DNA of 64,000 bases from an uncultured Gammaproteobacteria bacterium. GTDB taxonomy: Bacteria; Pseudomonadota; Gammaproteobacteria; CAWCPV01. The stretch spans positions 512,001 to 576,000 of the forward strand of contig CAWCPV010000004.1 of NCBI GenBank assembly GCA_963797555.1. Direction: 5' to 3'. Each line of letters opens with the position of its first letter. The stretch's first letter is position 1. Of the stretch, positions 47,020 through 62,598 are shown in pieces. Below the pieces are notes generated by a model that saw only the letters and a list, made by a program, of their open reading frames with translations, had not been told where the DNA came from and searched no databases. The position numbers were made by a program, and so were the translations under genes.

Positions 47020-47734
47020 CTCGTGCGTTATGCCGATGATCTCCTCACTCGTATGTGCACGGGGGGTGGAGCCACCGATGCGGGTGCTGCGCAGCGTATT
47101 GAAGCGGCTGGGTCTCAGCCTCAACGAGGCCAAGACGCGGGTGGTGGATGCCCGAGAACAGTCCTTCGACTTTCTCGGCTTCAGCTTCCATCTGCGGCCC
47201 GAGTGGCCACAGTGGCAAACGCTACCCGCATGTCGAGCCGTCGAAGCGTTCGGTGCAGCGTATCAAAGACAGTACCAAGCAGTTGACCCATCGACGGCGG
47301 ACCCCGGTGCCGATGCCCCGGATCATCGGGGAGCTGAACCGGAGCCTGCGGGGCTGGAGCCACTACTTTCACCACCGCAACTGCAGTCAGGCACTGTCCA
47401 AGGTGAAGCTGCACGTGGAAGAGCGGGTACGTACCCATCTGCGTCGGCGCCACAAGCTCCTCAGCCGGGCGCAGGCGTACCGGCGCTTTCCCGGGCAGGT
47501 GCTCTACGGACGTTATGGACTCTTCAAGCTGCCGACGACGGCACCCTGGCGCACGGCGCATGCCCTGGCGTGAAGAGCATCGGAAAGCCGTGTACGGGAA
47601 AACCGTATGCACGGTTTGATGAGAGGGGGCTGGCTACTGCGGCTACGGATGGGCTATTGAGGCACCGCCAGCCGAAAGGGGCGGCAACAGATAGGCCCAG
47701 CCTACGGTCTCGGGACACCTGGCATCTACTCGAC
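47020..47734 (+). mobile_element. 5'-truncated group II intron (RT domains 5-7 and X frameshifted, DV-DVI intact)
   Basis: RYADD; LSLNEAKT..FDFLGF; LNRSLRGW..YF; DV GAAAGCCGTGTACGGGAAAACCGTATGCACGGTTTGATGAGAGGGG; 3' end CTCGAC. Confidence 0.85.
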
Positions 47735-47785: not shown

Positions 47786-50458
47786 ATGGGCGACTTGCAT
47801 CATCTTTCATCGCAGGAAGCGCTGGCTGCCGTTGATTCGACCGCGCACGGTTTGAGCCAAACCGAAGCGGCGCGGCGCCTCGCGCAATATGGCCCGAATC
47901 GCCTGACGCCCGCCAACCAGCGAGGCAGCCTGATGCGGTTCCTGCTGCAATTCCACAATGTGCTGATCTACGTGCTGCTCGCCGCGGCAAGCGTCACCGC
48001 ATTACTCGCGCATTGGGTGGACACCAGCGTGATCATCGGCGTCGTGTTCATCAATGCCGTCATCGGCTTCATTCAGGAAGGCAAGGCCGAGAAGGCGATG
48101 GATGCCATCCGCCGCATGCTTTCACCTGAAGCCACCGCGTTGCGCGACAGCCGGCGCGAAGTGATCGCGGCCGAAGAGCTGGTCCCAGGTGACATCGTAC
48201 TGCTGCAATCCGGCGACAAGGTGCCTGCCGATCTGCGCCTGCTGTCGGTGAAGAACCTGCGCATCGAAGAAGCCGCTCTCACTGGCGAATCCAGCGCGGT
48301 GGAAAAAAATATCGCCGCAGTGGACGACAATGCCCTTCTGGGCGACCGATTCTGTATGGCCTATTCGGGTACGCTGGTCGTGTATGGACAGGGCACGGGC
48401 GTGGTGATCGCCACTGCCGACAATACCGAGATCGGGCGTATCAGCGCCATGCTGGATGAAGTACAGACTTTGACCACCCCGCTATTGCGCCAGATGGATA
48501 TCTTCGGGCGCTGGCTGACGATCGCGATCACGGTGCTGGCGGTCTTTGCATTCTTCGTCGGCTGGCTGATACACCAGTTCGATCTCGGCGATATGTTCAT
48601 TGCCGCCGTGAGCATCGCAGTGGCGGCGATCCCCGAAGGTCTTCCAGCGGTGCTGACCATCACACTGGCACTGGGTGTGCGGCGTATGGCCAAACGCAAC
48701 GCCATCATCCGCCGCCTGCCTGCGGTGGAAGCCCTGGGTTCGGTAACCGTGATCTGTACCGACAAGACCGGTACCCTGACGCGCAATGAAATGACAGTGC
48801 AACGCGTTCTTACCGCCGACCGCGTGCTCGAGGTGAGCGGCGGCGGGTATGCACCGCATGGCGGATTCACCCTGGCCGGCAAGGATACGGATATCGCCGG
48901 CGACACCGAAGTACTCGATCTGTTGCGCGCCGGAATGCTATGTAACGATGCGGTGCTGCGTGAGAACGGCGGGACATGGCACGTAGCGGGCGATCCCACC
49001 GAGGGGGCGCTCATCACGCTGGCCATGAAAGGCGGTTTTGACCCGGTACGCGAACATGAATCGCTGCCACGCATCGATCTCATCCCTTTTGAATCGGAAC
49101 ACCGTTTCATGGCGACATTGCACCACGACCATGCGGGACATGCCTTTATCGTTGTGAAAGGTGCGGCCGAGCAGCTCCTGGCGATGTGCGACCGGCAGCG
49201 CCAGACGAATGCAGACGCACCCCTCGATCTGCAGCAGTGGCACGACAGAATGGCCGGGGCCGGCGCACTCGGCCTGCGTGTACTGGCTCTGGCGACAAAG
49301 TCTGTGGGCGCCGGGAAGCGCGAACTGAATTTTGCTGACATGCAGGGCGGTTTCTCGCTGCTCGGCCTGGTAGGCATCACCGATCCGCCGCGCGAAGAAG
49401 CCATCGCTGCCGTGCGCGACTGTCATGCGGCGAGCATCCGCGTCATGATGATCACGGGCGACCACGCCGGAACGGCGGGCGCGATCGCCACACAATTAGG
49501 CATCGGCAACGGCCGCACGCTCGGCGGAAGCGAACTGGATGCGATGGATGAGGCCGCATTGTTGCAGGCCGTGCGCGATGTGGACGTGTTTGCACGCGCC
49601 AGCCCAGAACACAAGCTACGCCTAGTCCGGGCGCTACAGGCCAACGGCGAGGTGGTTGCCATGACCGGAGATGGCGTGAACGACGCGCCGGCCCTGAAAC
49701 GGGCCGACATCGGCCTGGCCATGGGCATGAAAGGAACCGAGGTGGCCAAAGAAGCCTCGGGGATCGTGCTGGCAGATGACAACTTCTCCACTATCGCGCA
49801 CGCCGTGGAAGAAGGCCGCACCGTTTACGACAATCTCAAGAAGGCCATCGTGTTCATCATCCCGACCAATGGCGGCGAAGCAGGCATGGTGCTGGTCGCC
49901 ATCCTCTTCGGCATGACATTGCCGATCACCCCGGTGCAGATCCTGTGGGTCAACATGGTCACGGCGGTCACACTTGCGCTGGCACTTTCATTCGAAAAAG
50001 CAGAGCCGGATGTGATGCGGCGCCCGCCGCGTTCGGTCGGCGAACCGTTACTGTCCGGCTTCATGATCTGGCGCATCGTGTTCGTGTCTGTGCTGCTCAC
50101 GGCAGGCCCCATATTCCTGTTCACCTGGGAAAGCGCGCGCGGCGTCAGTGTGGAAATGGCCCGCACCGCCGCGATCAATGCATTGGTCGCCGGTGAAATT
50201 GCCTACCTGTTCAATTGTCGCTACCTGCTGGCACCGGTACGCACCTGGAAAGATTTCACCGGCAATTTCTACATACTGCTTACTGTTGTCATCCTGGCCA
50301 TCATCCAGGCCGTATTCACTTACACGCCATTCATGCATACGCTGTTCGGCGTCGTCGATATCGACTTCGCGGCATGGGTACGCATTCCGTTCTTCGGGGT
50401 GTCTCTGTTTGTGGCAGTGGAATTGGAGAAGATGCTGATCCGACGCATCAAAGGATAG
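47786..50458 (+). CDS. Cation-transporting P-type ATPase (type IIA, PacL/CtpF-like)
   Basis: TGES, IPEGLP, DKTGT, MITGD, TGDGVND. Confidence 0.97.
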   Translation: MGDLHHLSSQEALAAVDSTAHGLSQTEAARRLAQYGPNRLTPANQRGSLMRFLLQFHNVLIYVLLAAASVTALLAHWVDTSVIIGVVFINAVIGFIQEGKAEKAMDAIRRMLSPEATALRDSRREVIAAEELVPGDIVLLQSGDKVPADLRLLSVKNLRIEEAALTGESSAVEKNIAAVDDNALLGDRFCMAYSGTLVVYGQGTGVVIATADNTEIGRISAMLDEVQTLTTPLLRQMDIFGRWLTIAITVLAVFAFFVGWLIHQFDLGDMFIAAVSIAVAAIPEGLPAVLTITLALGVRRMAKRNAIIRRLPAVEALGSVTVICTDKTGTLTRNEMTVQRVLTADRVLEVSGGGYAPHGGFTLAGKDTDIAGDTEVLDLLRAGMLCNDAVLRENGGTWHVAGDPTEGALITLAMKGGFDPVREHESLPRIDLIPFESEHRFMATLHHDHAGHAFIVVKGAAEQLLAMCDRQRQTNADAPLDLQQWHDRMAGAGALGLRVLALATKSVGAGKRELNFADMQGGFSLLGLVGITDPPREEAIAAVRDCHAASIRVMMITGDHAGTAGAIATQLGIGNGRTLGGSELDAMDEAALLQAVRDVDVFARASPEHKLRLVRALQANGEVVAMTGDGVNDAPALKRADIGLAMGMKGTEVAKEASGIVLADDNFSTIAHAVEEGRTVYDNLKKAIVFIIPTNGGEAGMVLVAILFGMTLPITPVQILWVNMVTAVTLALALSFEKAEPDVMRRPPRSVGEPLLSGFMIWRIVFVSVLLTAGPIFLFTWESARGVSVEMARTAAINALVAGEIAYLFNCRYLLAPVRTWKDFTGNFYILLTVVILAIIQAVFTYTPFMHTLFGVVDIDFAAWVRIPFFGVSLFVAVELEKMLIRRIKG

Positions 50459-51239: not shown

Positions 51240-51870
51240 TCAATCTTGGCATAAAAACCGTGCATTGCCCAAAGGCTGATTCTGATTCAGCGCCAGCCGT
51301 AGGTCGTTGATCGCTTCTTGGTCCAGTTGCGCCCGGAACAGGCTCCGGTAGGCAGCCTGCCTTTCCTTCGCCTCCCTGCCCAGCGACAGATACAGAGGAT
51401 GCGGGGTGAAATACGGGTTGACCTGCCCCAGGGCATTGTGACGGTAGCTCGTCCAGCGGTAATGCGCAGGATCATCGATCATGGCTGCCCATGTAGGGGG
51501 TTGAGCTCGATGTATCGCTGGCAGGCAAGCAGGTAGGTTTCGGCTTGGATCAGCGAGGATTTGTAACGGCTATCCCATAGGGTGCGGTCCGGCGGTAGGT
51601 GGTGTTGATGTACTGCACGTAGCGCCGCCCCAAGGCAATGATCAGCCGGGGGACGGCTCCGGCATGCTCGGGGCTCAGAAGCAGGTGGACATGGTTGGTC
51701 ATCAACGCGTAGGCGTGAAGCGCGCACCGCTCTTTCTTCAACGCCTCGCCCAACCAGTGGAGGTAGGCCTGATAATCTCTTCGCCAAAGAAGCACGGTTC
51801 GCGGTTGTGCCCGCGTTGCACGATGTGCAGCGGTACGCCATCAAGATGGATGCGGGGGCGGCGGGGCACA
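51240..51870 (-). pseudogene. REP-associated tyrosine transposase (RAYT, Y1), frameshifted
   Basis: MPRRPRI..HIVQRGHNR..YALMTNHVHLL..LWDSRYKS..YIELNP..YRWTSY; flanked by AAAGGGGCCAGG motifs (51094, 51898). Confidence 0.85.
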
Positions 51871-51934
51871 TTGAAGTATCATAAGCAAATACTTCGACCC
51901 TGGCCCCTTTGGCCCCTCCTTTGGCCCCCTAGGA

Positions 51935-52315
51935 TGGCCTTGTCGCGCTCCAGCGCCTCGATCCGCCGGTCCTTGGCATCCTTGAGCGTCTTGCGACCAG
52001 GCTTCTTAGGTGCAAGCCCGGCCTCGCCTTCACGCTCGAGCTGCACACGCCAGGCTGCTAACTGGGAGCTGTACAGTCGCTCTCGACGCAGCAGCGCCGC
52101 CAGTGCTCCGCGTTCACTGCAAACCTCGGCCTCGGCCAAGATACGTTGCTTGTCCTCGGCCGAGAAGCGCCGGCGCAACCGCCGATCATGCTCAGGGTTG
52201 GCTACCACCTCAGTACCGCTTCCAACTGAAACAGGCTTGGGCATGACATCCTCCAGTGCGCCCTCGAATCATACTGACATTTCAAGAAACCCGTGTCTCA
52301 GTCATTATTGGCACA
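51935..52315 (-). mobile_element. IS3-family left end and orfA fragment
   Basis: TGTGCCAATAATGACTGAGACA end at 52315; RRRFSAEDKQRIL..LLRRERLYSSQLAAWR. Confidence 0.75.
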
Positions 52316-52319
52316 GAGG

Positions 52320-52662
52320 GGATGTATCGCTGGCAGGCAAGCACATGTCCACCTGCTTCTGACGCCCGAGCCGTCCCCCGGCTGATCATTGCCTTGGGGC
52401 GGCGCTATGTGCAGTACATCAACACCACCTACCGCCGGACGGGCACCCTATGGGATAGCCGTTACAAATCCTCGCTGATCCAAGTTTGGCGAAGAAGATT
52501 ATCAGGCCTACCTCCACTGGTTGGGCGAGGCGTTGAAGAAAGAGCGGTGCGCGCTTCACGCCTACGCGTTGATGACCAACCGAAGCACGGTTCGCGGTTG
52601 TGCCCGCGTTGCACGATGTGCAGCGGTACGCCATCAAGATGGATGCGGGGGCGGCGGGGCAT
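52320..52662. pseudogene. Scrambled second RAYT copy
   Basis: Same segments as 51509-51870 with two internal blocks individually inverted. Confidence 0.75.
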
Positions 52663-52735: not shown

Positions 52736-54004
52736 CTACAGTTCCGCATTAATGACCCGGCGGCGATACGGGCGCAGGATTCTGTGCAACACTGCGAGCC
52801 GCTCGACGTCGTCCTCGTATGTCGGCATTTGGAGAGCCCGGAGCATGAACGGCGGCCTACGGGACTTGCCTCGTGCAACAAGCTCCACATTCGTGCCCAC
52901 GGCGAGTCCCATGCCGGCTTCGATGCAAGTGTTCAGATTGTCGTCAGTGATATCAGCAAGTACCACGAACGCGTCGCATACCTTCTTCATGATGGCCGAC
53001 TGCAGGTTGTCCTCATGGATCTCGCTGCCGACAATTGTGGCCATGCCCGTTATCCGTTCAATCAGGTGTCGTATCGACCCGCCGGCCCGGGCCAGGTCGG
53101 AGTCCAGATCCATTGCACAGAAGACGTACTGGGGGGCAGGGGGCTCCCGCCACTGTTCCCACAGCCCGCTGAGGTTGACAGACACCGAAGTCGGGCATTG
53201 CGCCGCCGCAGTTTCCATCCGAAGCCAGCTAGCGTCGGAGCCATCGACGCGGCGGACCCGAGGGTCGGCGACTATCACGGTCGGGAGGTCGAGCCGGCCG
53301 GCTACGTCCATTTCATGAACGAAATAGTTGTATGGCCTCTCGCCAGCAGAGGCAGACTCAACTTCGCGAAAAGGGAGAATGCCGACAAAGGCTCCGCAGC
53401 TGGCGATGATGCGCTCGACCCTCTCGCCCATTCCGAAGCCCTTCTGGTCGCGAGCGTCTCCAATCAAGCGGAAGCCCTGTTGTACAAGAGCGCGGCACAC
53501 GGCACGCGCACTGTCGCTATCGTCAGGTTGCCAGGAACAGCTAATGAAGATGTCACGAGCAGTTGCTGGGTTCGGGCGCTTCTCGCCCGGGTAAAACGCT
53601 TGAATGATTGCGAGCGCGCTGTCGGGGTCGAGGCAAGGTCCGGGAAGGTCAATCCAGGTGGTGCCTCTGAGCAATTCTTCGACGTTCGCGTTAGGGAGGC
53701 GAAGTGCCACAACACGAAAGGCATCGTGGTTCGCGCGCTCGTCCATCGCCGAGTTGTATTCCGCCTTCACCCAACCCCGTGCGAGTGACTTGTCAGACGC
53801 CACCAGCAGTATCCCACGACATCGCTCTATAGCCGCTTGGAGATCGGTGGCGAGCAGCGCACCGCCAGCCAACTCTCGTGCGTCGTACCAGACGCGCAGG
53901 CCGGCATTCGTCAACCAGCGATCAAGCTGCGACACAAAAGCTGCGTCCTGATGCGCATGGCTCAGGAAGACGTTGAAGTCTCGCCTCTGTATCGGGAGAG
54001 TCAT
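52736..54004 (-). CDS. TIR-domain protein with additional TIR/NDT-like domains (cassette gene)
   Basis: VFLSHAHQD..GLRVWYD..WVKAE; second IFISCS..E block; C-terminal VVLADIT..NLNTCIEAG. Confidence 0.8.
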   Translation of the reverse strand: MTLPIQRRDFNVFLSHAHQDAAFVSQLDRWLTNAGLRVWYDARELAGGALLATDLQAAIERCRGILLVASDKSLARGWVKAEYNSAMDERANHDAFRVVALRLPNANVEELLRGTTWIDLPGPCLDPDSALAIIQAFYPGEKRPNPATARDIFISCSWQPDDSDSARAVCRALVQQGFRLIGDARDQKGFGMGERVERIIASCGAFVGILPFREVESASAGERPYNYFVHEMDVAGRLDLPTVIVADPRVRRVDGSDASWLRMETAAAQCPTSVSVNLSGLWEQWREPPAPQYVFCAMDLDSDLARAGGSIRHLIERITGMATIVGSEIHEDNLQSAIMKKVCDAFVVLADITDDNLNTCIEAGMGLAVGTNVELVARGKSRRPPFMLRALQMPTYEDDVERLAVLHRILRPYRRRVINAEL

Positions 54005-54087
54005 CGGGTCACCCGAGTACGCGGCACGAATTGCGTGGTCCATTTGCGCATTGTCGGAGCTGATACGAGATCATACCTCCAGGTGCG

Positions 54088-54145
54088 GCATAACGTTGCG
54101 CTTAGCGGCGCGCTTCAGCGCGTCCGCTGAAGCAGCAAGTTAGGC
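54088..54145 (-). other. attC site (58 bp)
   Basis: Minus strand GCCTAAC TTGCT GCTTCAGCGGACGCGCTGAAGCGCGCCGCTAAGC GCAAC GTTATGC, directly after a stop codon. Confidence 0.9.
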
Positions 54146-54634
54146 GCGGCCTAGAATACCTCAATATCGTCACGGCTGAATCCGGCTAAATTTGCGATGA
54201 TCTGCTCGAGTCCCCACGTCGGCGAAACAAACGCCGCATCCAATCGGAAGCGATGGTTGTACAAGGTTCCGAAAGCGTTCAATCTCATCCTCGGGGCAGA
54301 TAACGAATAGCATTTTATCCGTCGTGCAACGAATAGCATTTTATCCGTCGTGCGGCAGCATGATGGATAAAATGTGTTGAACTGAACCGCTGGATTCAGG
54401 CGACCGGCCTATGGGGATTGTATGGGGGCAGTCCCGCGTTGGGGCCGCTTGGGGTGTGGCTGGTCGGGTGGTTATGTGGTGCATGGACCGCTCGCTGGGC
54501 CTCGGTCTGGTGTGATGTCCCCCGCAGGGCACTATGGCAAAGGTGTGGTGGGCGGGTCAAGGGCTGGGGAAGGCCAAAGGGGACTGTGGCCGGCTTGCGG
54601 GGAAGCGGTCGGGGGCTTCGGCGGGTGATGGTCG

Positions 54635-55853
54635 TCATGAGAGCGGTGGGGGTCCGGTCGCTTTCGGGGTGGGGGGTGCAGCCCTGAGCGGCACCACGAG
54701 AACGATCCGCTGCAGGTGCCCTTCTCCGCAGTAGGGGCAGCGCTGGATATCGATGCCCGTCAGGCGCAGCATTGCCGCCCCCACCGACTCGGGTTCTCGT
54801 GGCGCTGGCGCTGGCTGGCCGAGCAGCGCCCGGCAACGGGCTAGGCGCTCGGTACGGTGGCGGTTGGCCAAGAGCCCGACATGGCGGATACGCATCAAGC
54901 CAGGTGGGAGCACATGGAGCAGGAAGCGGCGGATGAACTCCTCGGTCTCCAGACGCATCACTTTGATCCGATTGCCCCGGGCATAGTCCCGGTAGCGAAA
55001 GCGCACGGTGCCATCGTTGAGATCGAGGAGCCGCTCGTGGCTGATCGCCACCCGGTGGGTGTAGCGTCCCAGGTAGGCCAGCACCTGCTCGGGACCCGCA
55101 AATGGGGGCTTGGAGTAGACTACCCAGTCCTGGGAGTGCAGCTCGGTGAGAAAACGGTCAAAGCCCGCTGGCTCGGCGAGCCCCGCCAGCTCGCCGGCGA
55201 AATGCAGCTCACCGCGCCCGCGGGCCTGTTGCAGGATCTCCAGGTACTTGCCGCGGAACACCCGGGACAATGCCCGGACCGGAAACAGGAAGCCGCGCTT
55301 GGCGGGAATCCAGCGGCCGGCGTCGACGGAGAGCGCACCGCCGGTCACCACGCAGTGCACGTGGATATGCTGGCCGAGGTTCTGGCCCCAGGTGTGCAGC
55401 ACCAGGGTCGCGCCGAGTTCCCCACCGAGCCAGCGGGGATTGCGCCCAAAGTCCTGCAGTGTCTCGGAGGCGGCCCGGAACAGAGCATCGTAGATCTGCT
55501 TGGGATTGCCCTGCGCCAGCGCATTGAGAGCATGCGGCAGGGTGAACACCACGTGGAAGTACTCCACAGGGAGGAGCTCCCGCGCAGCGCGCCTGCAGCC
55601 AGTGCTCCTTGGCCAGCGTCTGGCACTTGGGGCAATGGCGGTTGCGGCAGGAGTGGTAGCGCAACTCGATGCGCCCGCAGCGGTCGCACTGCACCGCTTG
55701 AGCCCCCAGCAGGAGCGTGCGGCAGGCCTCGATGGCCCGCATCACCCGGTGCTGCTGAGCGCACAGCCGATGGGTTGCCCGGAAGTGCTCCCCGTGGGCC
55801 CGGAAGATATCCGCCAGCTCCAGCCGCCCCGCTCCCGCGGGACGGGTACACAC
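54635..55853 (-). pseudogene. IS91-family (Y2 HUH) transposase with 1-nt frameshift near 55580
   Basis: SCRNRHCPKC; HTWG..HIHVH; YLGRY; intact in copy 2. Confidence 0.9.
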
Positions 55854-55856
55854 CGC

Positions 55857-56715
55857 CTAGAACTGCGTGGGGCTCTCAGGGATCTCCAGCAGGTCGAGCG
55901 GCGAGGCGGTGCCGGTCAGGCGCGGCCTCGCCAGGTGAAAGTAGCGCAGGGTGGTGCTGAGGTGCCCATGGCCCAACAGGCGCTGGATGGTGTGGAGAAT
56001 CCACTGCCGCCTCCAGCAGGTGGGTGGCGAAGGCATGCCTCAGCCCGTGGATGCCGCAGCGCTTGGTGATGCCCGCCCTGCGCTTGGCTGCATAATAAAT
56101 CTTCTGGGCCGAGCGGGGCTCGATGGGATGTTCCCCGTCGCGCAGAGGAAAGAGCCAGCGCTTGGGGCGGTAGGCCATCCAGTAACGGCGAAGCTCAAGG
56201 AGCAAGCGCTTGGAGAGCAGCGTGTAGCGGTCCTTCGCCCCCTTGGCCTGCTCCACCCGAAGGGCCATGCGCTCGCTGTCGATGTCCGAGACCTTGAGGT
56301 GCGCCACCTCGCTCACCCGCAGCCCCGCGCTGTAGGTGGCCATCAACAGCGCCCGGTGCTTGAGGTTCAAGGTCGCCTCGAACAGCCGCTTGATCTCCTC
56401 GCGGCTCAGGATCTCGGGCAGCCTGGAGGGCTGTCGGGGGCTCGGCAGACAGAACTCGGCCTCGGAGCGGCCCAAGCTGACTCGGTAGAAGAACCGCAGG
56501 CCATTGGCGATGATGTTACAGGTGCTGCTGGAAAGTCCCCGCTCCGGAAGCCCGTGCAGCAGGTAGCTCTGCACCTCGGGCTCGGAGATCTCGTCGGGCC
56601 TGTGTCGGTAGAACCTGGCCAGACCCCGTACCGCATCGAGATAAGCCTCGCGGGTGCGCACCGCCATCCCGCGCAGCACCATGTCGTCGTCCATCTTCGC
56701 GCGCAGCTCGCTCAT
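55857..56715 (-). CDS. Tyrosine recombinase with SAM-like N-terminus; +1 frameshift near 55998
   Basis: YSAGLRVSE; KGAKDR; HGLRHAFATHLLE; LHTIQRLLGH..TTLRY in a shifted frame. Confidence 0.9.
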
Positions 56716-57148
56716 GACAGCCTCCTTTCAAGCAGAGAGTGGGAAAGACCCACGCAAAGCTTGGCAGAGCAGTCATGAGAGATCGCAAAACGTCAGGCGA
56801 AGATGAGGATCCGGCATAGCCGGTCGCATTACAGCGCCAAAATAGCGGAGCAGTTCAGCCAGAAACAATGCGAAAACGCCAAAAAAACCAAACCATCGCG
56901 TAAGCGGTTTAGTTCAACAATGAATGGGTGTGGAAGACTGAAGTTTCCCTTCTTTCGCCACCCACGTTCCCACCAGAATTCATTTCGGTAACGGCGACCG
57001 CCACCCGCACCATCGTTAGAACCCATCTGCTCGATAAAAGGTGTGATCTTCGAAATGGGCTGATCGTCGAAATGGCCGGCGTTATATCGAGATACCAGAC
57101 GGGATTTGCGCCTCCACCTCGACCTTGTTTCTTTGTTATCGCTATACC

Positions 57149-57852
57149 CATCCCATTACACACAACTTGAGGACACTCGTGTAACATCCTGACACAATGC
57201 TACAAGAGGGAGGGTGTCGGGATGAGCTGGGCAGCGGAGGAGTTCCAGGGCATTGACTTGGGCGACAAGCGGCTGGACAAGCGAGCGGTGTTGCTGGCCG
57301 AGCGGCTGGCGGAGAAGCCGACGGCGAGCATTCCAGGAGCGTGTGGGGGCTGGGCCGAGACCCAGGGGGCTTAACCGTGAGGCCGCCAGCTTCGAGCCAG
57401 CGGCCGAGATCATCGACTGGTATCGCGCCCGCTGGGAGATTGAACTCTTCTTCCACGTGCTGAAGAACGCCTGCCGCGTGGAGGCATTGCAGCTCAGCAC
57501 CATGGAACGCCTGGAACGGGCGCTGGCGCTATTCATGGTGGTCGCCTGGCGCATCGCCCGGCTGATGCGCCTGGGGCGCACCTGTCCGGACTTGGAGGCC
57601 GAGTGGTTGTTCGAGCGCGAGGAGTGGGAGGCAGCCTTCCTCCTGAACAAGAAACGCCCACCGAAGACGCCACCCCGACTGAACCAAGTGGTGCGTCTCA
57701 TCGCCAGGCTCGGCGGCTTCCTGGGGCGCAAGGGCGACGGCGAGCCCGGTGTGAAAACCCTCTGGCAAGGGCTGCAGCGGGTTATGGACTTCGCGGCAGG
57801 ACTGCACTACGCGCGTGAGGCCCAAGCCCTTTGACTTGTGTGTAACGAGATG
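57149..57852 (+). mobile_element. Internally deleted IS4 (IS50-like) element
   Basis: IRs CATCCCATTACACACAA / TTGTGTGTAACGAGATG; 9-bp TSD CGCTATACC (57140-57148, 57853-57861); N-term WAAEEF..LGDKRL joined to Y..RW.IE.F..LK C-term. Confidence 0.92.
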
Positions 57853-58153
57853 CGCTATACCATAGGGGGCAAATTCAAACTGACGCCCTTCGATCTCCCC
57901 TAGCAGCAAACATAGATGCTCGAGCGGCGTTTCCGTGAAACAGACGCACTTCTGAGACTCGGTCGCCTGGTGCGCCTCTTCGAGTCTTGTGACCGCTGGC
58001 CCGAACGGTGTTCGCGCCTCTACTCGCGTTGACTCGAGAATAGACTCAAGGCGCTCGCGCGCCGTCTGGTTTTCACCATCTCTCGTAAGGTGCACGAGAA
58101 AAGTGCCAAGGTCGGTTCTGCGCGCGATAACTTCGCGAATGTTCATGCGTGGT

Positions 58154-58216
58154 ACCTAACGTGCCAAGCTCAGGGGCCGCGACGTAGGAGCGGTCCCCTG
58201 GAGCGCAGAGTTAGGC
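58154..58216 (-). other. attC site (63 bp)
   Basis: GCCTAAC TCTGC GCTCCAGGGGACCGC..GCGGCCCCTGAGC TTGGCAC GTTAGGT; hicB stop lies within R''. Confidence 0.9.
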
Positions 58217-58423
58217 CATGACCTCGACGTACTCCACATGGCTAGCCGGCTGCGGAATCGGCAGCCCGTCCTCGTGCATCCCCGCCAGGTGAAACTCAAT
58301 GGCTTCCCGGATGGCGACTTCAGTCTCCTCCACCGTGGCCCCAGTAGCCACACAACCGGGCAGGTCTGGAACGTAGGCCGAGTAGTTGCTCTCCGCCTTC
58401 TCAATCACGACCGCATAACGCAT
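58211..58423 (-). CDS. hicB: HicB antitoxin
   Basis: MRYAVVIEKAESNYSAYVPDLPGCVATGAT. Confidence 0.9.
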   Translation of the reverse strand: MRYAVVIEKAESNYSAYVPDLPGCVATGATVEETEVAIREAIEFHLAGMHEDGLPIPQPASHVEYVEVMA

Positions 58424-58431
58424 GGCCACAC

Positions 58432-58620
58432 CTACTTTTTCCAACCCGCTTGCTTGAAGACACTGTTGAGCGTCCCAGGCGCCAGATCGTCGCTGGGCTT
58501 GCCCGCAACCGTCACGCGACCGGGCTTGGTCGGATGTTTCAACTGCCGATGGCTGCCCCGCGTTGCCACCACGTACCAGCCATCCTCCCGCAACTTCTCT
58601 AGCACCTCGCTGACCTTCAT
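58432..58620 (-). CDS. hicA: HicA toxin
   Basis: MKVSEVLEKLREDGWY..RGSHRQLKHPTKPGRVTV. Confidence 0.9.
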   Translation of the reverse strand: MKVSEVLEKLREDGWYVVATRGSHRQLKHPTKPGRVTVAGKPSDDLAPGTLNSVFKQAGWKK

Positions 58621-58626
58621 CAAGCA

Positions 58627-58655
58627 AGCATACTGCCCCACTGAGAGGTGGTCAA
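58627..58655 (-). promoter_or_regulatory. Sigma70 promoter of hicAB cassette (probably leaderless)
   Basis: TTGACC-17-TATGCT, 6 nt before the ATG. Confidence 0.65.
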
Positions 58656-58675
58656 AACGGGCTGGATAGCGAGCG

Positions 58676-58753
58676 GCCCAACGCCGGTGCTCACCCGCGA
58701 CGACGGCGGCCGTCAGGCCGCCGGAGGCGTCGTGGTGGAGCGGCTGGTTAGGC
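58676..58753 (-). other. attC site (78 bp)
   Basis: GCCTAAC CAGCC GCTCCACC..GGTGAGC ACCGGC GTTGGGC; upstream ORF stop lies within R''. Confidence 0.9.
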
Positions 58754-59236
58754 AGCGGAGCCAATTCCAGCATGCTCATTGATTTTCTCGAACCATATTT
58801 GAGCCATCTCTTTCGACATTGTGATGCCCCGTGGTAGAGGTTGCTCTGCTTCGATGTGGAGGTACAACGCGTGAGAAATCTCCGTGTACTCCTCGAAGAG
58901 TTCTGGGACGTTCGGTGCCCGCAGAATCAAACGCATGATTCGGAGCCAGCTATGAATCTGGTGTCGTCCGTCGCGGCTCTCAGTCTCTAGTAAGAGATAG
59001 ACGGACTGGTTGACCAGCGCTGGCAGAAGCGATCGAAGGTATGGAAAGTCCTTCTCCCAAAGTCCTTCAATCAACGCGATACCTACGCTTCGCTTTTGAG
59101 AACCGCCGGTCAGGTATTCCAGAGCCTGAATTAGAACCCGATGCCGCTGCTCGCCCCGACGCTCGAGGTACGCAGTGACGGCCAGGAGCCCAGCAACTAA
59201 CCAACCACCAACGGCAGCGATAACGGCTTCGGTCAC
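58748..59236 (-). CDS. Hypothetical cassette protein with N-terminal TM helix
   Basis: GTG start after GTTAGGCAGCGGAG; the cassette start is complementary to CTCCGCTGCCTAAC at its end. Confidence 0.7.
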   Translation of the reverse strand: MTEAVIAAVGGWLVAGLLAVTAYLERRGEQRHRVLIQALEYLTGGSQKRSVGIALIEGLWEKDFPYLRSLLPALVNQSVYLLLETESRDGRHQIHSWLRIMRLILRAPNVPELFEEYTEISHALYLHIEAEQPLPRGITMSKEMAQIWFEKINEHAGIGSAA

Positions 59237-59250
59237 GTCGAGTCTCCGCT

Positions 59251-59309
59251 GCCTAACGAATAGCATTTTATCCGTCGTGCGGCAGCATGATGGATAAAAT
59301 GTGTTGAAC
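59251..59309 (-). other. Atypical attC-like hairpin forming the element's downstream end (also 54324-54382)
   Basis: GTTCAAC A CATTTTATCC ATCATGC TGCC GCACGAC GGATAAAATG CTATTC GTTAGGC; RYYYAAC and GTTRRRY are present but the spacers are 1 vs 6 nt. Confidence 0.6.
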
Positions 59310-59561
59310 TGAACCGCTGGATTCAGGCGACCGGCCTATGGGGATTGTATGGGGGCAGTCCCGCGTTGGGGCCGCTTGGGGTGTGGCTGGTCGGGTGGTT
59401 ATGTGGTGCATGGACCGCTCGCTGGGCCTCGGTCTGGTGTGATGTCCCCCGCAGGGCACTATGGCAAAGGTGTGGTGGGCGGGTCAAGGGCTGGGGAAGG
59501 CCAAAGGGGACTGTGGCCGGCTTGCGGGGAAGCGGTCGGGGGCTTCGGCGGGTGATGGTCG

Positions 59562-60779
59562 TCATGAGAGCGGTGGGGGTCCGGTCGCTTTCGGGGTGGG
59601 GGGTGCAGCCCTGAGCGGCACCACGAGAACGATCCGCTGCAGGTGCCCTTCTCCGCAGTAGGGGCAGCGCTGGATATCGATGCCCGTCAGGCGCAGCATT
59701 GCCGCCCCCACCGACTCGGGTTCTCGTGGCGCTGGCGCTGGCTGGCCGAGCAGCGCCCGGCAACGGGCTAGGCGCTCGGTACGGTGGCGGTTGGCCAAGA
59801 GCCCGACATGGCGGATACGCATCAAGCCAGGTGGGAGCACATGGAGCAGGAAGCGGCGGATGAACTCCTCGGTCTCCAGACGCATCACTTTGATCCGATT
59901 GCCCCGGGCATAGTCCCGGTAGCGAAAGCGCACGGTGCCATCGTTGAGATCGAGGAGCCGCTCGTGGCTGATCGCCACCCGGTGGGTGTAGCGTCCCAGG
60001 TAGGCCAGCACCTGCTCGGGACCCGCAAATGGGGGCTTGGAGTAGACTACCCAGTCCTGGGAGTGCAGCTCGGTGAGAAAACGGTCAAAGCCCGCTGGCT
60101 CGGCGAGCCCCGCCAGCTCGCCGGCGAAATGCAGCTCACCGCGCCCGCGGGCCTGTTGCAGGGTCTCCAGGTACTTGCCGCGGAACACCCGGGACAATGC
60201 CCGGACCGGAAACAGGAAGCCGCGCTTGGCGGGAATCCAGCGGCCGGCGTCGACGGAGAGCGCACCGCCGGTCACCACGCAGTGCACGTGGATATGCTGG
60301 CCGAGGTTCTGGCCCCAGGTGTGCAGCACCAGGGTCGCGCCGAGTTCCCCACCGAGCCAGCGGGGATTGCGCCCAAAGTCCTGCAGTGTCTCGGAGGCGG
60401 CCCGGAACAGAGCAGCGTAGATCTGCTTGGGATTGCCCTGCGCCAGCGCATTGAGAGCATGCGGCAGGGTGAACACCACGTGGAAGTACTCCACAGGGAG
60501 GAGCTCCGCGCAGCGCGCCTGCAGCCAGTGCTCCTTGGCCAGCGTCTGGCACTTGGGGCAATGGCGGTTGCGGCAGGAGTGGTAGCGCAACTCGATGCGC
60601 CCGCAGCGGTCGCACTGCACCGCTTGAGCCCCCAGCAGGAGCGTGCGGCAGGCCTCGATGGCCCGCATCACCCGGTGCTGCTGAGCGCACAGCCGATGGG
60701 TTGCCCGGAAGTGCTCCCCGTGGGCCCGGAAGATATCCGCCAGCTCCAGCCGCCCCGCTCCCGCGGGACGGGTACACAC
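59562..60779 (-). CDS. IS91-family (Y2 HUH) transposase, intact
   Basis: 405 aa; Zn-binding N-terminus, HIH, YLGRY. Confidence 0.93.
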   Translation of the reverse strand: MCTRPAGAGRLELADIFRAHGEHFRATHRLCAQQHRVMRAIEACRTLLLGAQAVQCDRCGRIELRYHSCRNRHCPKCQTLAKEHWLQARCAELLPVEYFHVVFTLPHALNALAQGNPKQIYAALFRAASETLQDFGRNPRWLGGELGATLVLHTWGQNLGQHIHVHCVVTGGALSVDAGRWIPAKRGFLFPVRALSRVFRGKYLETLQQARGRGELHFAGELAGLAEPAGFDRFLTELHSQDWVVYSKPPFAGPEQVLAYLGRYTHRVAISHERLLDLNDGTVRFRYRDYARGNRIKVMRLETEEFIRRFLLHVLPPGLMRIRHVGLLANRHRTERLARCRALLGQPAPAPREPESVGAAMLRLTGIDIQRCPYCGEGHLQRIVLVVPLRAAPPTPKATGPPPLS

Positions 60780-60782
60780 CGC

Positions 60783-61641
60783 CTAGAACTGCGTGGGGCT
60801 CTCAGGGATCTCCAGCAGGTCGAGCGGCGAGGCGGTGCCGGTCAGGCGCGGCCTCGCCAGGTGAAAGTAGCGCAGGGTGGTGCTGAGGTGCCCATGGCCC
60901 AACAGGCGCTGGATGGTGTGGAGAATCCACTGCCGCCTCCAGCAGGTGGGTGGCGAAGGCATGCCTCAGCCCGTGGATGCCGCAGCGCTTGGTGATGCCC
61001 GCCCTGCGCTTGGCTGCATAATAAATCTTCTGGGCCGAGCGGGGCTCGATGGGATGTTCCCCGTCGCGCAGAGGAAAGAGCCAGCGCTTGGGGCGGTAGG
61101 CCATCCAGTAACGGCGAAGCTCAAGGAGCAAGCGCTTGGAGAGCAGCGTGTAGCGGTCCTTCGCCCCCTTGGCCTGCTCCACCCGAAGGGCCATGCGCTC
61201 GCTGTCGATGTCCGAGACCTTGAGGTGCGCCACCTCGCTCACCCGCAGCCCCGCGCTGTAGGTGGCCATCAACAGCGCCCGGTGCTTGAGGTTCAAGGTC
61301 GCCTCGAACAGCCGCTTGATCTCCTCGCGGCTCAGGATCTCGGGCAGCCTGGAGGGCTGTCGGGGGCTCGGCAGACAGAACTCGGCCTCGGAGCGGCCCA
61401 AGCTGACTCGGTAGAAGAACCGCAGGCCATTGGCGATGATGTTACAGGTGCTGCTGGAAAGTCCCCGCTCCGGAAGCCCGTGCAGCAGGTAGCTCTGCAC
61501 CTCGGGCTCGGAGATCTCGTCGGGCCTGTGTCGGTAGAACCTGGCCAGACCCCGTACCGCATCGAGATAAGCCTCGCGGGTGCGCACCGCCATCCCGCGC
61601 AGCACCATGTCGTCGTCCATCTTCGCGCGCAGCTCGCTCAT
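60783..61641 (-). CDS. Tyrosine recombinase; same +1 frameshift near 60924
   Basis: Identical to copy 1. Confidence 0.9.
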
Positions 61642-62598
61642 GACAGCCTCCTTTCAAGCAGAGAGTGGGAAAGACCCACGCAAAGCTTGGCAGAGCAGTC
61701 ATGAGAGATCGCAAAACGTCAGGCGAAGATGAGGATCCGGCATAGCCGGTCGCATTACAGCGCCAAAATAGCGGAGCAGTTCAGCCAGAAACAATGCGAA
61801 AACGCCAAAAAAACCAAACCACCGCGTAAGCGGTTTAGTTCAACAGTGAGTGGACCTTAAAGTGCGGTGGTTAAACACGGACATTGGTCCGTCTATCCCG
61901 CAGACCGTGCCCCGGCCGCCAGACCCTCCGGTTTGCTTCCAACGGAGTGATGTGCTTGGACGAACAAGCGGTTGCATGACACTCGATCACTGACGAGGCC
62001 CGGCAAAGCAGGCGTCCCTTCCGGGGATAGGCGGACATTGTCCGTCTATCCTCGCACGCGTCCACGGGGAAGGTTGTTCCGCTCAGGACACGGCCTCCCA
62101 GCGCGGCCTGATGTCGTCGACCGCCTGGACGGTGCCGGGTCCTCTCATGGCCTCCCATGTGCCTCCCGGTGGTCTGGTCCGCCACCTTTTCGGCCGCCCT
62201 CCCCCGAGGAGGACCGGCTTGCCCGTGCAACCCCCCGGAGGGAGCGCTTGGCGCTCTAACGAAGTCTGACGAGCGCGAGACGGGCTGTCAAGGCGGGCGC
62301 GCGGTTTACCGGGCGGCCGACGCCCGGGCCATCGGGCACCGGCGGGCGCACCTCGCTGGCAACGGCGCGCGGCGGCCGAGCAGGATGTCGACGCGGCTCA
62401 TGCCGGTAAAGCACATTGACGTCGGCCCCCAGCCGCGGCGCAAGGGCCAGGTCGGGCCGTTCGGGTCCCTTGTGCGCCGCCGAGGACGCGCAGCCTCACG
62501 GGCGAGCGTCGGCGCCCAGCACTGTCTGAGCCCGGCGTCCCGCCGGATCGGCGGATGGCAGGTCAGCGAGCGCTGGCGCAGGCAGAAGCCGGCCCTCG

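What the first reader, a model, noticed from the sequence alone, without database searches (positions are those of the whole stretch)
54302..61844. Tyrosine recombinase + IS91-like HUH element that looks like a self-mobile integron cassette
Seen: there are two 2.59-kb copies. On the minus strand each begins GTTGAAC (a GTTRRRY core) and ends in a 59-nt hairpin from GTTCAAC (RYYYAAC) to GTT. In the excised circle the stem would extend to AGCGGTTCAGTTCAAC pairing with GTTGAACTAAACCGCT (15/16), which is the same start/R'' complementarity shown by the true cassettes beside it. Neither copy has a target duplication; only GTT is shared. Copy 2 sits at the core site GTTAGGC of the first cassette. An IS91-ori-like motif CAATCCCCATAG (54409-54420, 59336-59347) lies about 80 bp inside the real end. 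Established: IntI crosses over at G|TT on folded single-stranded attC, and IS91 Y2 transposases generate ssDNA by rolling circle. Inference: the HUH enzyme supplies ssDNA circles, the attC-like end folds, and the element's own recombinase (or a host IntI) integrates it at GTT sites, giving a rolling-circle/integron hybrid that targets cassette arrays. Caveat: the hairpin spacers are non-canonical (1 vs 6 nt, no clear extrahelical base). Int+IS91 gene pairs are already known; the end structure and insertion logic are the new point.
Basis: partly seen in the sequence, partly recalled or inferred. Interest (0 to 1): 0.88.

Follow-up and report, generated by a model that had tools for sequence, protein, structure and literature searches.

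The report
IS91 element that mimics integron cassettes
Two copies of a rolling-circle insertion sequence that also carries an integron-like recombinase sit exactly where integron gene cassettes sit, and its relatives in other genomes do the same, so it looks like a jumping gene that uses the integron's own docking sites.

Summary
Two 2.59-kb copies (99.85% identical) lie on the minus strand. Each carries an IS91-family Y2 HUH transposase gene and a Xer/IntI-like tyrosine recombinase gene. Each starts GTTGAAC and ends in hairpin, CTATTC tail, GTT.

The nearest named relative is ISAzo26, so the gene pair is known.

What I add:
- In this clade the ends behave like cassette ends.
  - G precedes TTGRAC in 29 of 29 ends in 401 genomes.
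  - GTT follows all 23 metagenome 3' ends I could call; the consensus is GTTAGGC.
- 8 of 81 ends with enough flank lie 166-418 nt from an integron integrase gene.
- attC-like sites are about 25-fold enriched in the flanks.
- Three junctions, copy 2 among them, match the R'' box of the next attC 7 of 7.
- Copy 2 sits at the end of an attI-like repeat, for which five empty paralogous sites exist.

- The recombinase is frameshifted in both copies and internally deleted in the two older copies.
- The hairpin lacks extrahelical bases.
- Copy 1's target is not an attC.
- A shared end motif is ordinary for IS91 elements.
- A genome with nine copies has no intact integron integrase.

Verdict: a cassette-mimicking, integron-targeting IS91 variant. 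Which enzyme integrates it is unresolved.

The parts
59255..61844 (-). Copy 2 (W2) of the IS91-family + recombinase element. The transposase gene is intact; the recombinase gene is frameshifted.
54302..56918 (-). Copy 1 (W1). Differs from W2 by 3 substitutions and 1 indel. The transposase gene is frameshifted (extra base at 55579). Includes a 26-nt tandem duplication at its 3' end.
54302..54353 (-). Two tandem 26-nt units (54302-54327 and 54328-54353), each holding the 3' half of the hairpin, the CTATTC tail and GTT. Found in W1 only.
61829..61844 (-). 5' terminus of W2. A GTTGAAC core opens a 16-nt repeat that is complementary at 15 of 16 positions to the subterminal repeat at 59303-59318. 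A small terIS-like palindrome follows.
   Evidence: fold z -2.0; conserved in 101 metagenome ends
60802..61641 (-). Tyrosine recombinase ORF of W2 (279 aa). Reads out of frame after codon 239. W1 equivalent: 55876-56715.
60786..60923 (-). Recombinase C-terminal catalytic segment (LLGH...RY motif region). It is intact but lies in a different frame from the ORF above.
   Evidence: P0001 residues 240-285 align in another frame
59562..60779 (-). IS91-family Y2 HUH transposase gene of W2 (405 aa). HIHVH and YLGRY motifs are visible. In W1 the gene is split into 54635-55567 and 55209-55853.
59336..59347 (-). CAATCCCCATAG motif, conserved in distant relatives (L029, ISAzo26, second family on C7).
59303..59318 (-). 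Subterminal repeat AGCGGTTCAGTTCAAC. It would be the R''-like box.
59255..59302 (-). 3' terminal hairpin: 17-nt arms at 59264-59280 and 59285-59301 with a 4-nt loop. Two A.C mismatches in the top strand become G.T pairs in the bottom strand. Then the tail CTATTC (59258-59263) and GTT (59255-59257).
61867..62576 (-). Repeat X: a 0.7-kb non-coding repeat present in at least 6 copies in the genome. Its end (61845-61900) is the attI-like site into which W2 is inserted.
58676..58753 (-). attC-like site of the cassette that follows W2. Its R'' box GCCTAAC is complementary to the GTTAGGC at the W2 junction.
58154..58216 (-). attC-like site of the hicAB cassette.
54088..54145 (-). attC-like site of the small cassette that follows W1.

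Best explanation
Identity (near certain). This is an ISAzo26-group member of the IS91 family: a Y2 HUH rolling-circle transposase plus a small Xer/IntI-like tyrosine recombinase.

Behaviour (well supported for its clade).
- Its ends imitate an integron cassette.
- It is found in cassette slots: at attI-type sites next to integron integrase genes, at true cassette boundaries, and inside attC arrays.

Mechanism (inferred).
1. The transposase peels off the bottom strand as a single-stranded circle, as shown for IS91.
2. In that circle the 16-nt terminal repeats pair and the terminal hairpin folds. This gives an attC-like site with its crossover at G|TT.
3. A tyrosine recombinase joins the circle to a GTTRRRY core site. 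That enzyme is the element's own when intact, or otherwise a resident integron integrase or a sister copy's enzyme.

In this window:
- W2 entered the attI-like end of repeat X, at the head of an attC cluster that has no integrase of its own.
- W1 entered a look-alike secondary site within the array.
- Both copies now carry a broken recombinase gene.
For: Identity.

Ends are conserved while the hairpin sequence varies.
- 20 of 28 3' ends have a stem scoring at least 9.5 that starts 0-5 nt after CAAC.
- Ten different hairpins fold with z from -2.9 to -7.8.

G|TT rule.
- G precedes TTGRAC in 29 of 29 ends and another base in 0, in the same 401 genomes. Two of the 29 are in unpublished genomes.
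- GTT follows the tail in 23 of 23 callable metagenome junctions, out of 33 evaluable. Ten of these come from contigs found through the 3' repeat alone.
- GTT also follows W1 and W2.

The next four bases come from the target yet are biased to AGGC. In 24 heptamers position 4 is A in 15, position 5 is G in 19 and position 7 is C in 16.

Integron context.
- 8 of 81 5' ends with at least 300 nt of flank lie 166-418 nt from an integron integrase gene. Five are divergent, with the integrase N-terminus nearest, as for a first cassette. TIGR02249 is the best family for the fragments tested, from 5 of the 8 loci.
- 18 attC-like sites lie in 12 of 120 element loci (471 kb). Controls gave 1 in 682 kb and 0 in 484 kb; the element's own genome has 13 in 5.35 Mb.
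- The junction heptamer matches the complement of the next attC's R'' box 7 of 7 in W2, L211 and L228.
- Five other X copies end at the same point, followed by GTTAG and then unrelated DNA. These serve as empty sites.
- The last bases of X resemble the real attI shared by the genome's two integrase loci.

Strand.
- The hairpin is more stable in the bottom strand in 7 of 11 elements.
- IS91 inserts only the bottom-strand circle (PMC13181058).

Recombinase.
- IS91-borne recombinases are reported as the closest homologues of IntI (bioRxiv 10.1101/542381, passage read).
- The intact homologue P0001 scores 176.8 bits on the IntI model in two stretches.

Own machinery suffices. A 98%-complete genome, G270, holds 9 copies and no integron integrase above cut-off. 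It still shows GTT at 3 of 4 readable junctions.
Against: - No copy of this family in the genome encodes a one-frame recombinase, yet W1 and W2 are near-identical. The last move therefore needed either no recombinase or one supplied in trans.
- IS91 transposase alone inserts circles next to a tetranucleotide (PMC13181058).
- The hairpin has no extrahelical bases, and its spacers are 0-5 nt on one side against 4-7 nt on the other.
- W1's target is not attC-like.
- Only 6 of 63 5' flanks end in a strong hairpin.
- Exceptions to GTT: GGT in C17 and C18; GTC in L029; ATT in ISAzo26; ATT and AGT in a Rhizobium plasmid; GAT in one G270 copy.
- The 13 Int+Y2 loci drawn from species genomes (about 50% amino-acid identity) show no neighbouring integron integrase. 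Only one has attC-like sites.
- The attC scanner is my own crude script, not IntegronFinder.
Confidence: 0.45

Rival explanations
1. Transposase-only. This is an ordinary IS91-type rolling-circle element whose transposase has an extended target preference (left arm, then GTT, then RRRY). Such sequences are concentrated in integrons. The recombinase is an accessory, for example resolving multimers or regulating, or it is decaying.
For: - IS91-family rules match the ends: a terIS tetranucleotide like the target tetranucleotide, subterminal palindromes at both ends, and a bottom-strand circle inserted by TnpA alone (PMC13181058, passages read).
- The recombinase is broken in all four copies here while the transposase is intact in W2, C17 and C18.
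- Several database homologues are also frameshifted, at different places.
- Most 5' flanks have no hairpin.
- Junctions other than GTT occur in the wider group.
- Nine copies exist in a genome with no intact integron integrase.
Against: - A four-base target cannot explain insertion exactly at attI crossover points next to integrase genes in 8 of 81 ends.
- It also cannot explain the bias at positions 5-7 after GTT, or the 7 of 7 matches to the next cassette's R'' box.
- The recombinase gene is kept at full length in most of the 120 listed homologues.
Confidence: 0.35
2. Passive cassette. The element is moved between these sites by a host integron integrase, like any cassette. Its own transposase is irrelevant to the placements seen.
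For: - Placement at attI-type sites and at true cassette boundaries, in the same orientation as the neighbouring cassette genes.
- An apparently intact integron integrase exists on contig C7 (502.5 bits).
- Loss of extrahelical bases reduces strand choice but does not abolish attC x attI recombination (PMC2727003, passage read).
Against: - G270 has 9 dispersed copies and no integron integrase above cut-off.
- W1 and many metagenome copies sit at sites without attC or attI features.
- The transposase and its end motifs are conserved across the clade.
Confidence: 0.12
3. Survivorship or chance. Insertions are random at GTT, and those in dispensable cassette arrays simply persist.
For: Cassette arrays tolerate insertions. 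Other insertion sequences are present here, such as an IS4/Tn5-like fragment at 57253-57834.
Against: - Base-exact coincidence with the X/cassette boundary, shown by five paralogous empty sites.
- A conserved left-arm signal, A at -7 in 59 of 99 flanks.
- 7 of 7 R'' matches.
- No hits in the controls.
Confidence: 0.05

Closest known systems
ISAzo26 group of the IS91 family (IS91-like transposase with an upstream tyrosine recombinase; Aromatoleum aromaticum EbN1 plasmid NC_006824.1)
   Same: - Same gene pair and gene order.
- About 65% DNA identity over the genes.
- Same motifs: TTGGACTAAACCGC at the start, then CAATCCCCATAG, a subterminal repeat and an AT-rich hairpin with a short tail at the end.
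   Different: - ISAzo26's 3' junction reads ATT, not GTT. A perfect palindrome abuts its 5' end.
- No integron context was seen there.
- The clade studied here has an invariant G|TT and an integron association.
IS91, IS801, IS1294 (classical IS91 family)
   Same: - HUH Y2 transposase.
- oriIS downstream and terIS upstream of tnpA, each with subterminal palindromes.
- No target duplication.
- The end tetranucleotide resembles the target tetranucleotide (GTTC).
- Bottom-strand circular intermediate (PMC13181058).
   Different: - They carry no tyrosine recombinase.
- Their target is four bases, with no reported integron targeting.
- Here the conserved motif lies about 80 nt inside the end, and the target consensus spans at least 7 bases plus a left arm.
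Integron gene cassette with its attC site
   Same: - Starts with TTRRRY after a G and is followed by GTTRRRY.
- The start is complementary to an R''-like box, here 7 of 7 and extendable to 15 of 16.
- The imperfect palindrome varies in sequence but keeps its structure.
- A C precedes GTT (G after AAC on the bottom strand) in most tails.
- Sits at attI and between cassettes, co-oriented with them.
   Different: - 2.6 kb, carrying two mobility genes.
- No extrahelical bases; spacers 0-5 nt against 4-7 nt.
- Multiplies in a genome without an intact integron integrase.
IS1111-attC elements and group IIC-attC introns (mobile elements that home to integron attC sites)
   Same: Mobile elements specialised for integron arrays (named in PMC9229058 and PMC3001079; listing and passage read).
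   Different: - Their enzymes differ: a DEDD transposase, or a ribozyme with reverse transcriptase.
- They insert inside attC sites. This element occupies a cassette slot and brings its own attC-like end.
ISCR elements (IS91-like 'common regions' beside class 1 integrons)
   Same: IS91-like rolling-circle transposase linked to integrons, with gene capture by one-ended transposition (PMC13181058 and PMC7923331, passages read).
   Different: ISCR1 sits beyond the 3' conserved segment, not in a cassette slot. It has no recombinase and no cassette-like ends.

Membership tests
IS91 family insertion sequence | HUH Y2 transposase with an N-terminal zinc-binding domain | tested here: met
   PF04986 211 bits and PF14319 104 bits. 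NF033538 446 bits against a cut-off of 125. HIHVH and YLGRY are visible in the translation.
IS91 family insertion sequence | Two different ends (terIS upstream and oriIS downstream of tnpA), each with a subterminal palindrome, and no target duplication | tested here: met
   The ends are defined by four copies. The ter-side palindrome folds with z -2.0 and the ori-side hairpin with z -4.4. No duplication is present beyond GTT.
IS91 family insertion sequence | Target tetranucleotide next to oriIS that resembles the tetranucleotide at terIS (GTTC or CTTG type) | tested here: met
   The start reads GTTG. The flank reads GTTN in W1, W2 and 23 of 23 callable metagenome junctions. The rule itself is taken from PMC13181058.
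IS91 family insertion sequence | Rolling-circle transposition through a bottom-strand circle | not testable with these tools
   Three contigs run from a 3' end straight into a 5' end (L126, L132, L151). These may be tandem copies or circles. No junction was seen in the public runs laid.
ISAzo26 group (IS91 + tyrosine recombinase) | Recombinase gene immediately upstream of tnpA, inside the same ends | tested here: met
   The nearest named relative is annotated as ISAzo26 family.
Integron integrase (IntI) | Score above the family cut-off, and presence of the IntI-specific insertion in the catalytic domain | tested here: not met
   The intact homologue P0001 scores 176.8 bits against a cut-off of 265, in two stretches that skip the insertion. 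The window protein scores 128.9 bits. The literature also says the insertion is absent (10.1101/542381).
Integron attC site | R'' (RYYYAAC) and R' (GTTRRRY) boxes that pair, with the crossover at G|TT | tested here: met
   GTTCAAC pairs with G+TTGAAC at 7 of 7 positions, extendable to 15 of 16. My attC scanner accepts the natural junctions in L132 and L151. The crossover point itself is inferred, not mapped.
Integron attC site | Extrahelical bases on the R''-L'' arm (a G, and a T 6-8 nt away) | tested here: not met
   The arms are of equal length, with mismatches but no bulges. A.C in the top strand equals G.T in the bottom strand. Criterion from PMC2727003.
Integron attC site | Unpaired central spacer between the R and L boxes | tested here: inconclusive
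   An internal loop exists but is lopsided: 0-5 nt against 4-7 nt. The canonical spacer lengths are recalled, not taken from a call.
Integron gene cassette | Occupies a slot bounded by core sites: after attI or an attC, and before the TTRRRY of the next cassette | tested here: met
   - W2 lies between the attI-like end of X and the cassette whose R'' box matches 7 of 7.
- L211 and L228 also match 7 of 7.
- 8 of 81 ends lie beside integron integrase genes.
- Not met for W1, L118 (4 of 7) or L177 (5 of 7).
Integron gene cassette | Mobilised by IntI | not testable with these tools
   Needs a recombination assay. Nine copies in a genome without an intact integron integrase argue that IntI is not required.

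The most novel reading that the evidence does not exclude
These elements are autonomous integron cassettes. The HUH transposase makes the single-stranded bottom-strand circle that integron-type recombination needs. The folded ori-ter junction serves as the attC. An IntI-like recombinase, the element's own or the host's, docks it at attI. Because IS91-type elements often read through terIS, the same machinery could package neighbouring genes together with the element's hairpin into new cassettes. Two cases here look like that: a stretch without its own attC followed by the element, in W1 and in L228. If so, this would be a concrete route for the birth of cassettes and of attC sites.
Probability: 0.2. 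Interest if true: 0.9.

Novelty: new variant of a known kind. Interest (0 to 1): 0.72.

Why it matters
Integrons are the main gene-capture system of Gram-negative bacteria. Where cassettes and their attC sites come from is still open, and so is how single-stranded substrates arise outside conjugation.

An IS91-type element makes single-stranded circles, carries the closest known relative of the integron integrase, ends in a cassette-like site and lands at attI. That would link rolling-circle transposition to integron recombination and make the link testable.

It also matters in practice:
- These elements would be miscounted as cassettes, or as array disruptions, in integron surveys.
- IS91/ISCR relatives are already implicated in moving resistance genes next to integrons.

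What is in print, from my searches:
- Gene pairs of this kind are catalogued.
- IS91-borne recombinases are grouped with IntI (10.1101/542381).

I found no description of the cassette-like ends, the G|TT rule or the attI association. Subscription journals, ISfinder, TnPedia and all supplementary files were not searchable here.

Tried and rejected
- Rfam on repeat X gave no credible match.
- W1's target as an interrupted attC: rejected, fold z -0.6.
- 'The target is always a hairpin': rejected. A strong terminal hairpin is present in 6 of 63 flanks against 1 of 57 controls.
- My first attC scanner was too strict and missed the true sites. A looser one was used afterwards.
- The search for related loci with a recombinase alignment mostly returned XerC/D loci. 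Only 12 of 80 had a Y2 transposase next door. The others served as a control.
- The viral-contig scan for the 15-mer found 56 loci, none with a transposase. These are chance matches in phage genes and were used only as a second negative control.
- Public runs: only Logan contigs of soil and marsh metagenomes, none holding even half of the stretch's sampled words (best share 0.29). No RNA holder was listed. The laid fragments showed no circle junction and no empty site.
- Rhizobium plasmid copies: the ends could not be resolved to the base. One '5' end' proved to be a solo palindrome. I draw only the conclusion that GTT is not universal in the wider group.
- My early idea that the T/G difference after CTATTCG is carried by the element was dropped.
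- I worried that my search pattern forced the leading G. The H-versus-G test removed that worry.
- Programmed frameshifting in the recombinase gene: not supported. Other homologues are broken at different places, and no slippery run is at the site.

Full report
WHAT IS THERE

The window is contig C4:512001-576000 of a 5.35-Mb assembly in 20 contigs. On the minus strand lie two copies of a 2.59-kb element: W2 at 59255-61844 and W1 at 54302-56918. Inside these limits they differ by three substitutions and one single-base indel.

Each copy has a 279-codon recombinase ORF (Phage_integrase + Phage_int_SAM_4) followed by a 405-codon Y2_Tnp + Zn_Tnp_IS91 gene. The transposase scores 446 bits on NCBIfam's IS91 model, cut-off 125. 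It shows HIHVH and YLGRY motifs.

Two older copies, 88% identical, lie on contigs C17 and C18, and fragments lie on C7, C8 and C16. All four full copies share the same ends:
- a start GTTGAAC followed by a small palindrome;
- an end made of CAATCCCCATAG, a 16-nt repeat complementary to the start at 15 of 16 positions, a hairpin, the tail CTATTC, and then GTT (GGT in C17 and C18).

The hairpin segment is 55 nt by my count, not 59.

- The recombinase is frameshifted at codon 239/240 in both window copies. The catalytic C-terminus is intact but in another frame.
- The C18 gene has an in-frame internal deletion and the C17 gene a larger one.
- The W1 transposase gene is frameshifted. Those of W2, C17 and C18 read through.
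- W1 carries a 26-nt tandem duplication of the 3' half-hairpin, tail and GTT.
- In C18 an inverted copy of the 3' hairpin abuts the 5' start.
- An intact recombinase of a second Int+Y2 family lies on C5. An apparently intact integron integrase (502.5 bits) lies on C7, with a truncated twin on C3.

THE SURROUNDINGS

My own loose attC scanner requires paired RYYYAAC and GTTRRRY boxes 50-150 nt apart and a stable DNA fold. It finds 13 sites in the whole genome. Three of them lie in the window, all between 54088 and 58753. Two more lie beside the real integrase on C7.

Reading the minus strand, the order is:
1. repeat X;
2. W2;
3. a cassette with an attC;
4. a hicAB cassette with an attC;
5. a cassette disrupted by an IS4/Tn5-like fragment;
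6. W1;
7. a small cassette with an attC;
8. a TIR-domain gene.

No integron integrase is in the window. This is an attC cluster without an integrase.

The GTTAGGC after W2 is the exact complement of the R'' box (GCCTAAC) of the next attC. W2 therefore abuts a genuine cassette start.

THE TARGET OF W2

The 0.7 kb upstream of W2 is a non-coding repeat, X, with at least five other copies in the genome. All of them end at the same point and are followed by GTTAG. After that come different genes, and in two cases an attC about 0.7 kb further on. These are paralogous empty sites. W2 sits at that boundary to within the GTT triplet.

The last dozen bases of X resemble the attI shared by the two integrase loci of this genome. 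There, two different first cassettes also diverge right after GTTAG.

W1's target has a similar left arm. However, it does not fold like an attC (z -0.6).

THE FAMILY

The recombinase has thousands of homologues, most about 284 aa and full length. The nearest named element is ISAzo26.

A metagenome scan with the 16-nt start motif gave 120 loci totalling 471 kb.

5' ends. There are 101 of them. All are followed by the small ACCGC...GCGG palindrome.

3' ends.
- Of 33 evaluable matches to the 3' repeat, 23 showed a hairpin, a 4-7-nt tail and then GTT. Eighteen were called by script and five by eye.
- The other 10 could not be called, and some look truncated.
- Ten of the 23 come from contigs found through the 3' repeat alone.
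- Hairpin sequences differ widely but keep pairing. Ten of them fold with z from -2.9 to -7.8.
- The bottom strand is the more stable in 7 of 11, because A.C mismatches there become G.T pairs.

The seven bases after the tail. I read 24 heptamers: 22 from metagenomes plus W1 and W2.
- Position 4 is A in 15, position 5 is G in 19, position 6 is G in 14 and position 7 is C in 16.
- GTTAGGC occurs exactly 5 times. Eight fit GTTRRRY.
- Close relatives differ after GTT(A), so these bases belong to the target.

A possible bias. My pattern began with G, so I tested for ascertainment. In 401 genomes of the class, the motif preceded by G occurs 29 times in 15 genomes. Preceded by A, C or T it occurs 0 times. 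Two of the 29 are in the unpublished genomes G039 and G307.

INTEGRON ASSOCIATION

- Of 81 5' ends with at least 300 nt of flank, 8 lie 166-418 nt from a gene 49-88% identical to this genome's integron integrase. In five the genes are divergent with the integrase N-terminus nearest, which is the first-cassette position. In three they are co-oriented.
- Six fragments from five of these loci have TIGR02249 as by far their best family.
- attC-like sites outside the element number 18 in 12 of the 120 loci.
- Controls gave 1 site in 682 kb of XerC/D loci and 0 in 484 kb of unrelated viral contigs.
- Where a downstream attC in the same orientation exists, the junction heptamer matches the complement of its R'' box as follows: 7 of 7 in L211, L228 and W2; 5 of 7 in L177; 4 of 7 in L118 (and by eye).
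- Left arm of the target: A at -7 in 59 of 99 flanks, with a TA-rich motif at -10 to -7. The sequences between integrase genes and elements share this, as do the end of X and the genome's own attI.
- Three contigs run from a 3' end straight into a 5' start, as tandem copies or circles would. My scanner accepts two of these junctions as attC-like.

LIMITS AND COUNTER-EVIDENCE

- The hairpin has no extrahelical bases, and its spacers are lopsided. Both features are defining for attC (PMC2727003, passages read).
- Only 6 of 63 5' flanks end in a strong hairpin. The usual target is therefore a plain double-stranded, attI-like or secondary site, not an attC.
- In the wider ISAzo26 group the junction is not always GTT.
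- The 13 more distant Int+Y2 loci from species genomes show no neighbouring integron integrase. Only one has attC-like sites.
- G270, a 98%-complete genome, has 9 copies at different places and no integron integrase above cut-off; only a C-terminal fragment is present elsewhere. Three of its four readable 3' junctions are still GTT. The site preference is therefore encoded by the element, and a host integron integrase is not needed.
- For IS91 itself the transposase alone inserts the bottom-strand circle next to a tetranucleotide. IS801 and IS1294 carry GTTC at terIS and insert beside GTTC (PMC13181058, passages read). A shared GTT is therefore expected for this family.

READING

Certain: this is an ISAzo26-group IS91 element.

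Well supported: its clade has cassette-like ends and a strong, base-precise association with integron attI sites, cassette boundaries and attC arrays.

Inferred: which enzyme makes the G|TT joint. I give these odds:
- 0.45 to the two-enzyme model (transposase makes the bottom-strand circle; an IntI-like tyrosine recombinase docks it);
- 0.35 to the transposase acting alone with an extended target;
- 0.12 to passive mobilisation by IntI;
- 0.05 to survivorship.

LITERATURE

I saw passages of:
- 10.1101/542381, where IS91 and IS3 recombinases are grouped with IntI and lack its insertion;
- PMC13181058, on IS91 ends, targets and the bottom-strand circle;
- PMC2727003, on attC features;
- PMC7923331, PMC11023631, PMC10288648 and PMC9345347, which held nothing relevant.

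Five searches found no account of cassette-like ends or attI targeting for these elements. ISfinder and TnPedia entries for ISAzo26-type elements, which I only recall, may say more.

Noticed in passing
window 61867-62576 (minus sense); also G000 C16:30252-30965, C4:465476-465865, C4:466385-467031, C4:640443-640629, C7:293143-293329: Repeat X is a 0.7-kb non-coding repeat, 80-85% identical between copies. It has a TTGACA/CAGACT promoter-like pair, repeated hairpins and a 36-nt palindrome. It ends in an attI-like site and heads attC clusters that have no integrase. There is no Rfam match and no similarity to IntI. What conserves it and how it spreads are unexplained.
   Followed up: partly
window 54302-54353: A 26-nt tandem duplication of the 3' half-hairpin, tail and GTT, in copy 1 only. 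It could be a slipped initiation or termination, or an aborted recombination.
   Followed up: partly
G000 C18:45332-45396 (locus L021): An inverted copy of the 3' terminal hairpin is fused to the 5' start of the C18 copy, through the 16-nt repeat.
   Followed up: no
window 47583-47734 and 47786-50458: An Rfam group II intron domain hit (46 bits, threshold 40) lies just upstream of a P-type cation ATPase gene. No intron-encoded protein is next to it.
   Followed up: no
window 52736-54043: A 435-aa TIR-domain protein gene starts right after an attC-like site, so it looks like a cassette. It may be a defence gene.
   Followed up: no
window 58211-58627: A hicA/hicB-type toxin-antitoxin pair forms a cassette with its own attC (58154-58216).
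   Followed up: partly
window about 57160-57840: An IS4/Tn5-like transposase fragment with short inverted ends disrupts the third cassette. More than 8 copies, about 96% identical, lie elsewhere in the genome.
   Followed up: partly
window 51544-52581: A set of long inverted repeats with arms up to 86 nt at 100% identity. The ORFs there have no Pfam match.
   Followed up: no
G000 C3:989422-990010 and C7:47393-48500: Two loci share the same integron integrase 5' region and attI. The C3 integrase is truncated (residues 1-138). Different first cassettes follow the same GTTAG point.
   Followed up: partly
L143 (metagenome contig): A 1.1-kb derivative with both element ends but most of the interior deleted, like a non-autonomous copy.
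   Followed up: no
L228, and window 56919-58153 plus W1: In both places a stretch with no attC of its own is followed directly by the element and then by a true cassette start. It is as if the element's hairpin served as that stretch's attC.
   Followed up: partly
L037 (Blastocatellia MAG contig): Two element copies flank two attC-like sites, the same arrangement as in the window.
   Followed up: no
L246 301-342 (Rhizobium sp. T136 plasmid): A solo 5' end is extended into a perfect 42-nt palindrome, away from any full element.
   Followed up: no
G000 C7:145047-147200, C5:279310-280300, C14:174989-175648: A second, 40-50% identical Int+Y2 family in the same genome. It has the same end architecture, but its one complete copy is not followed by GTT.
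   Followed up: partly
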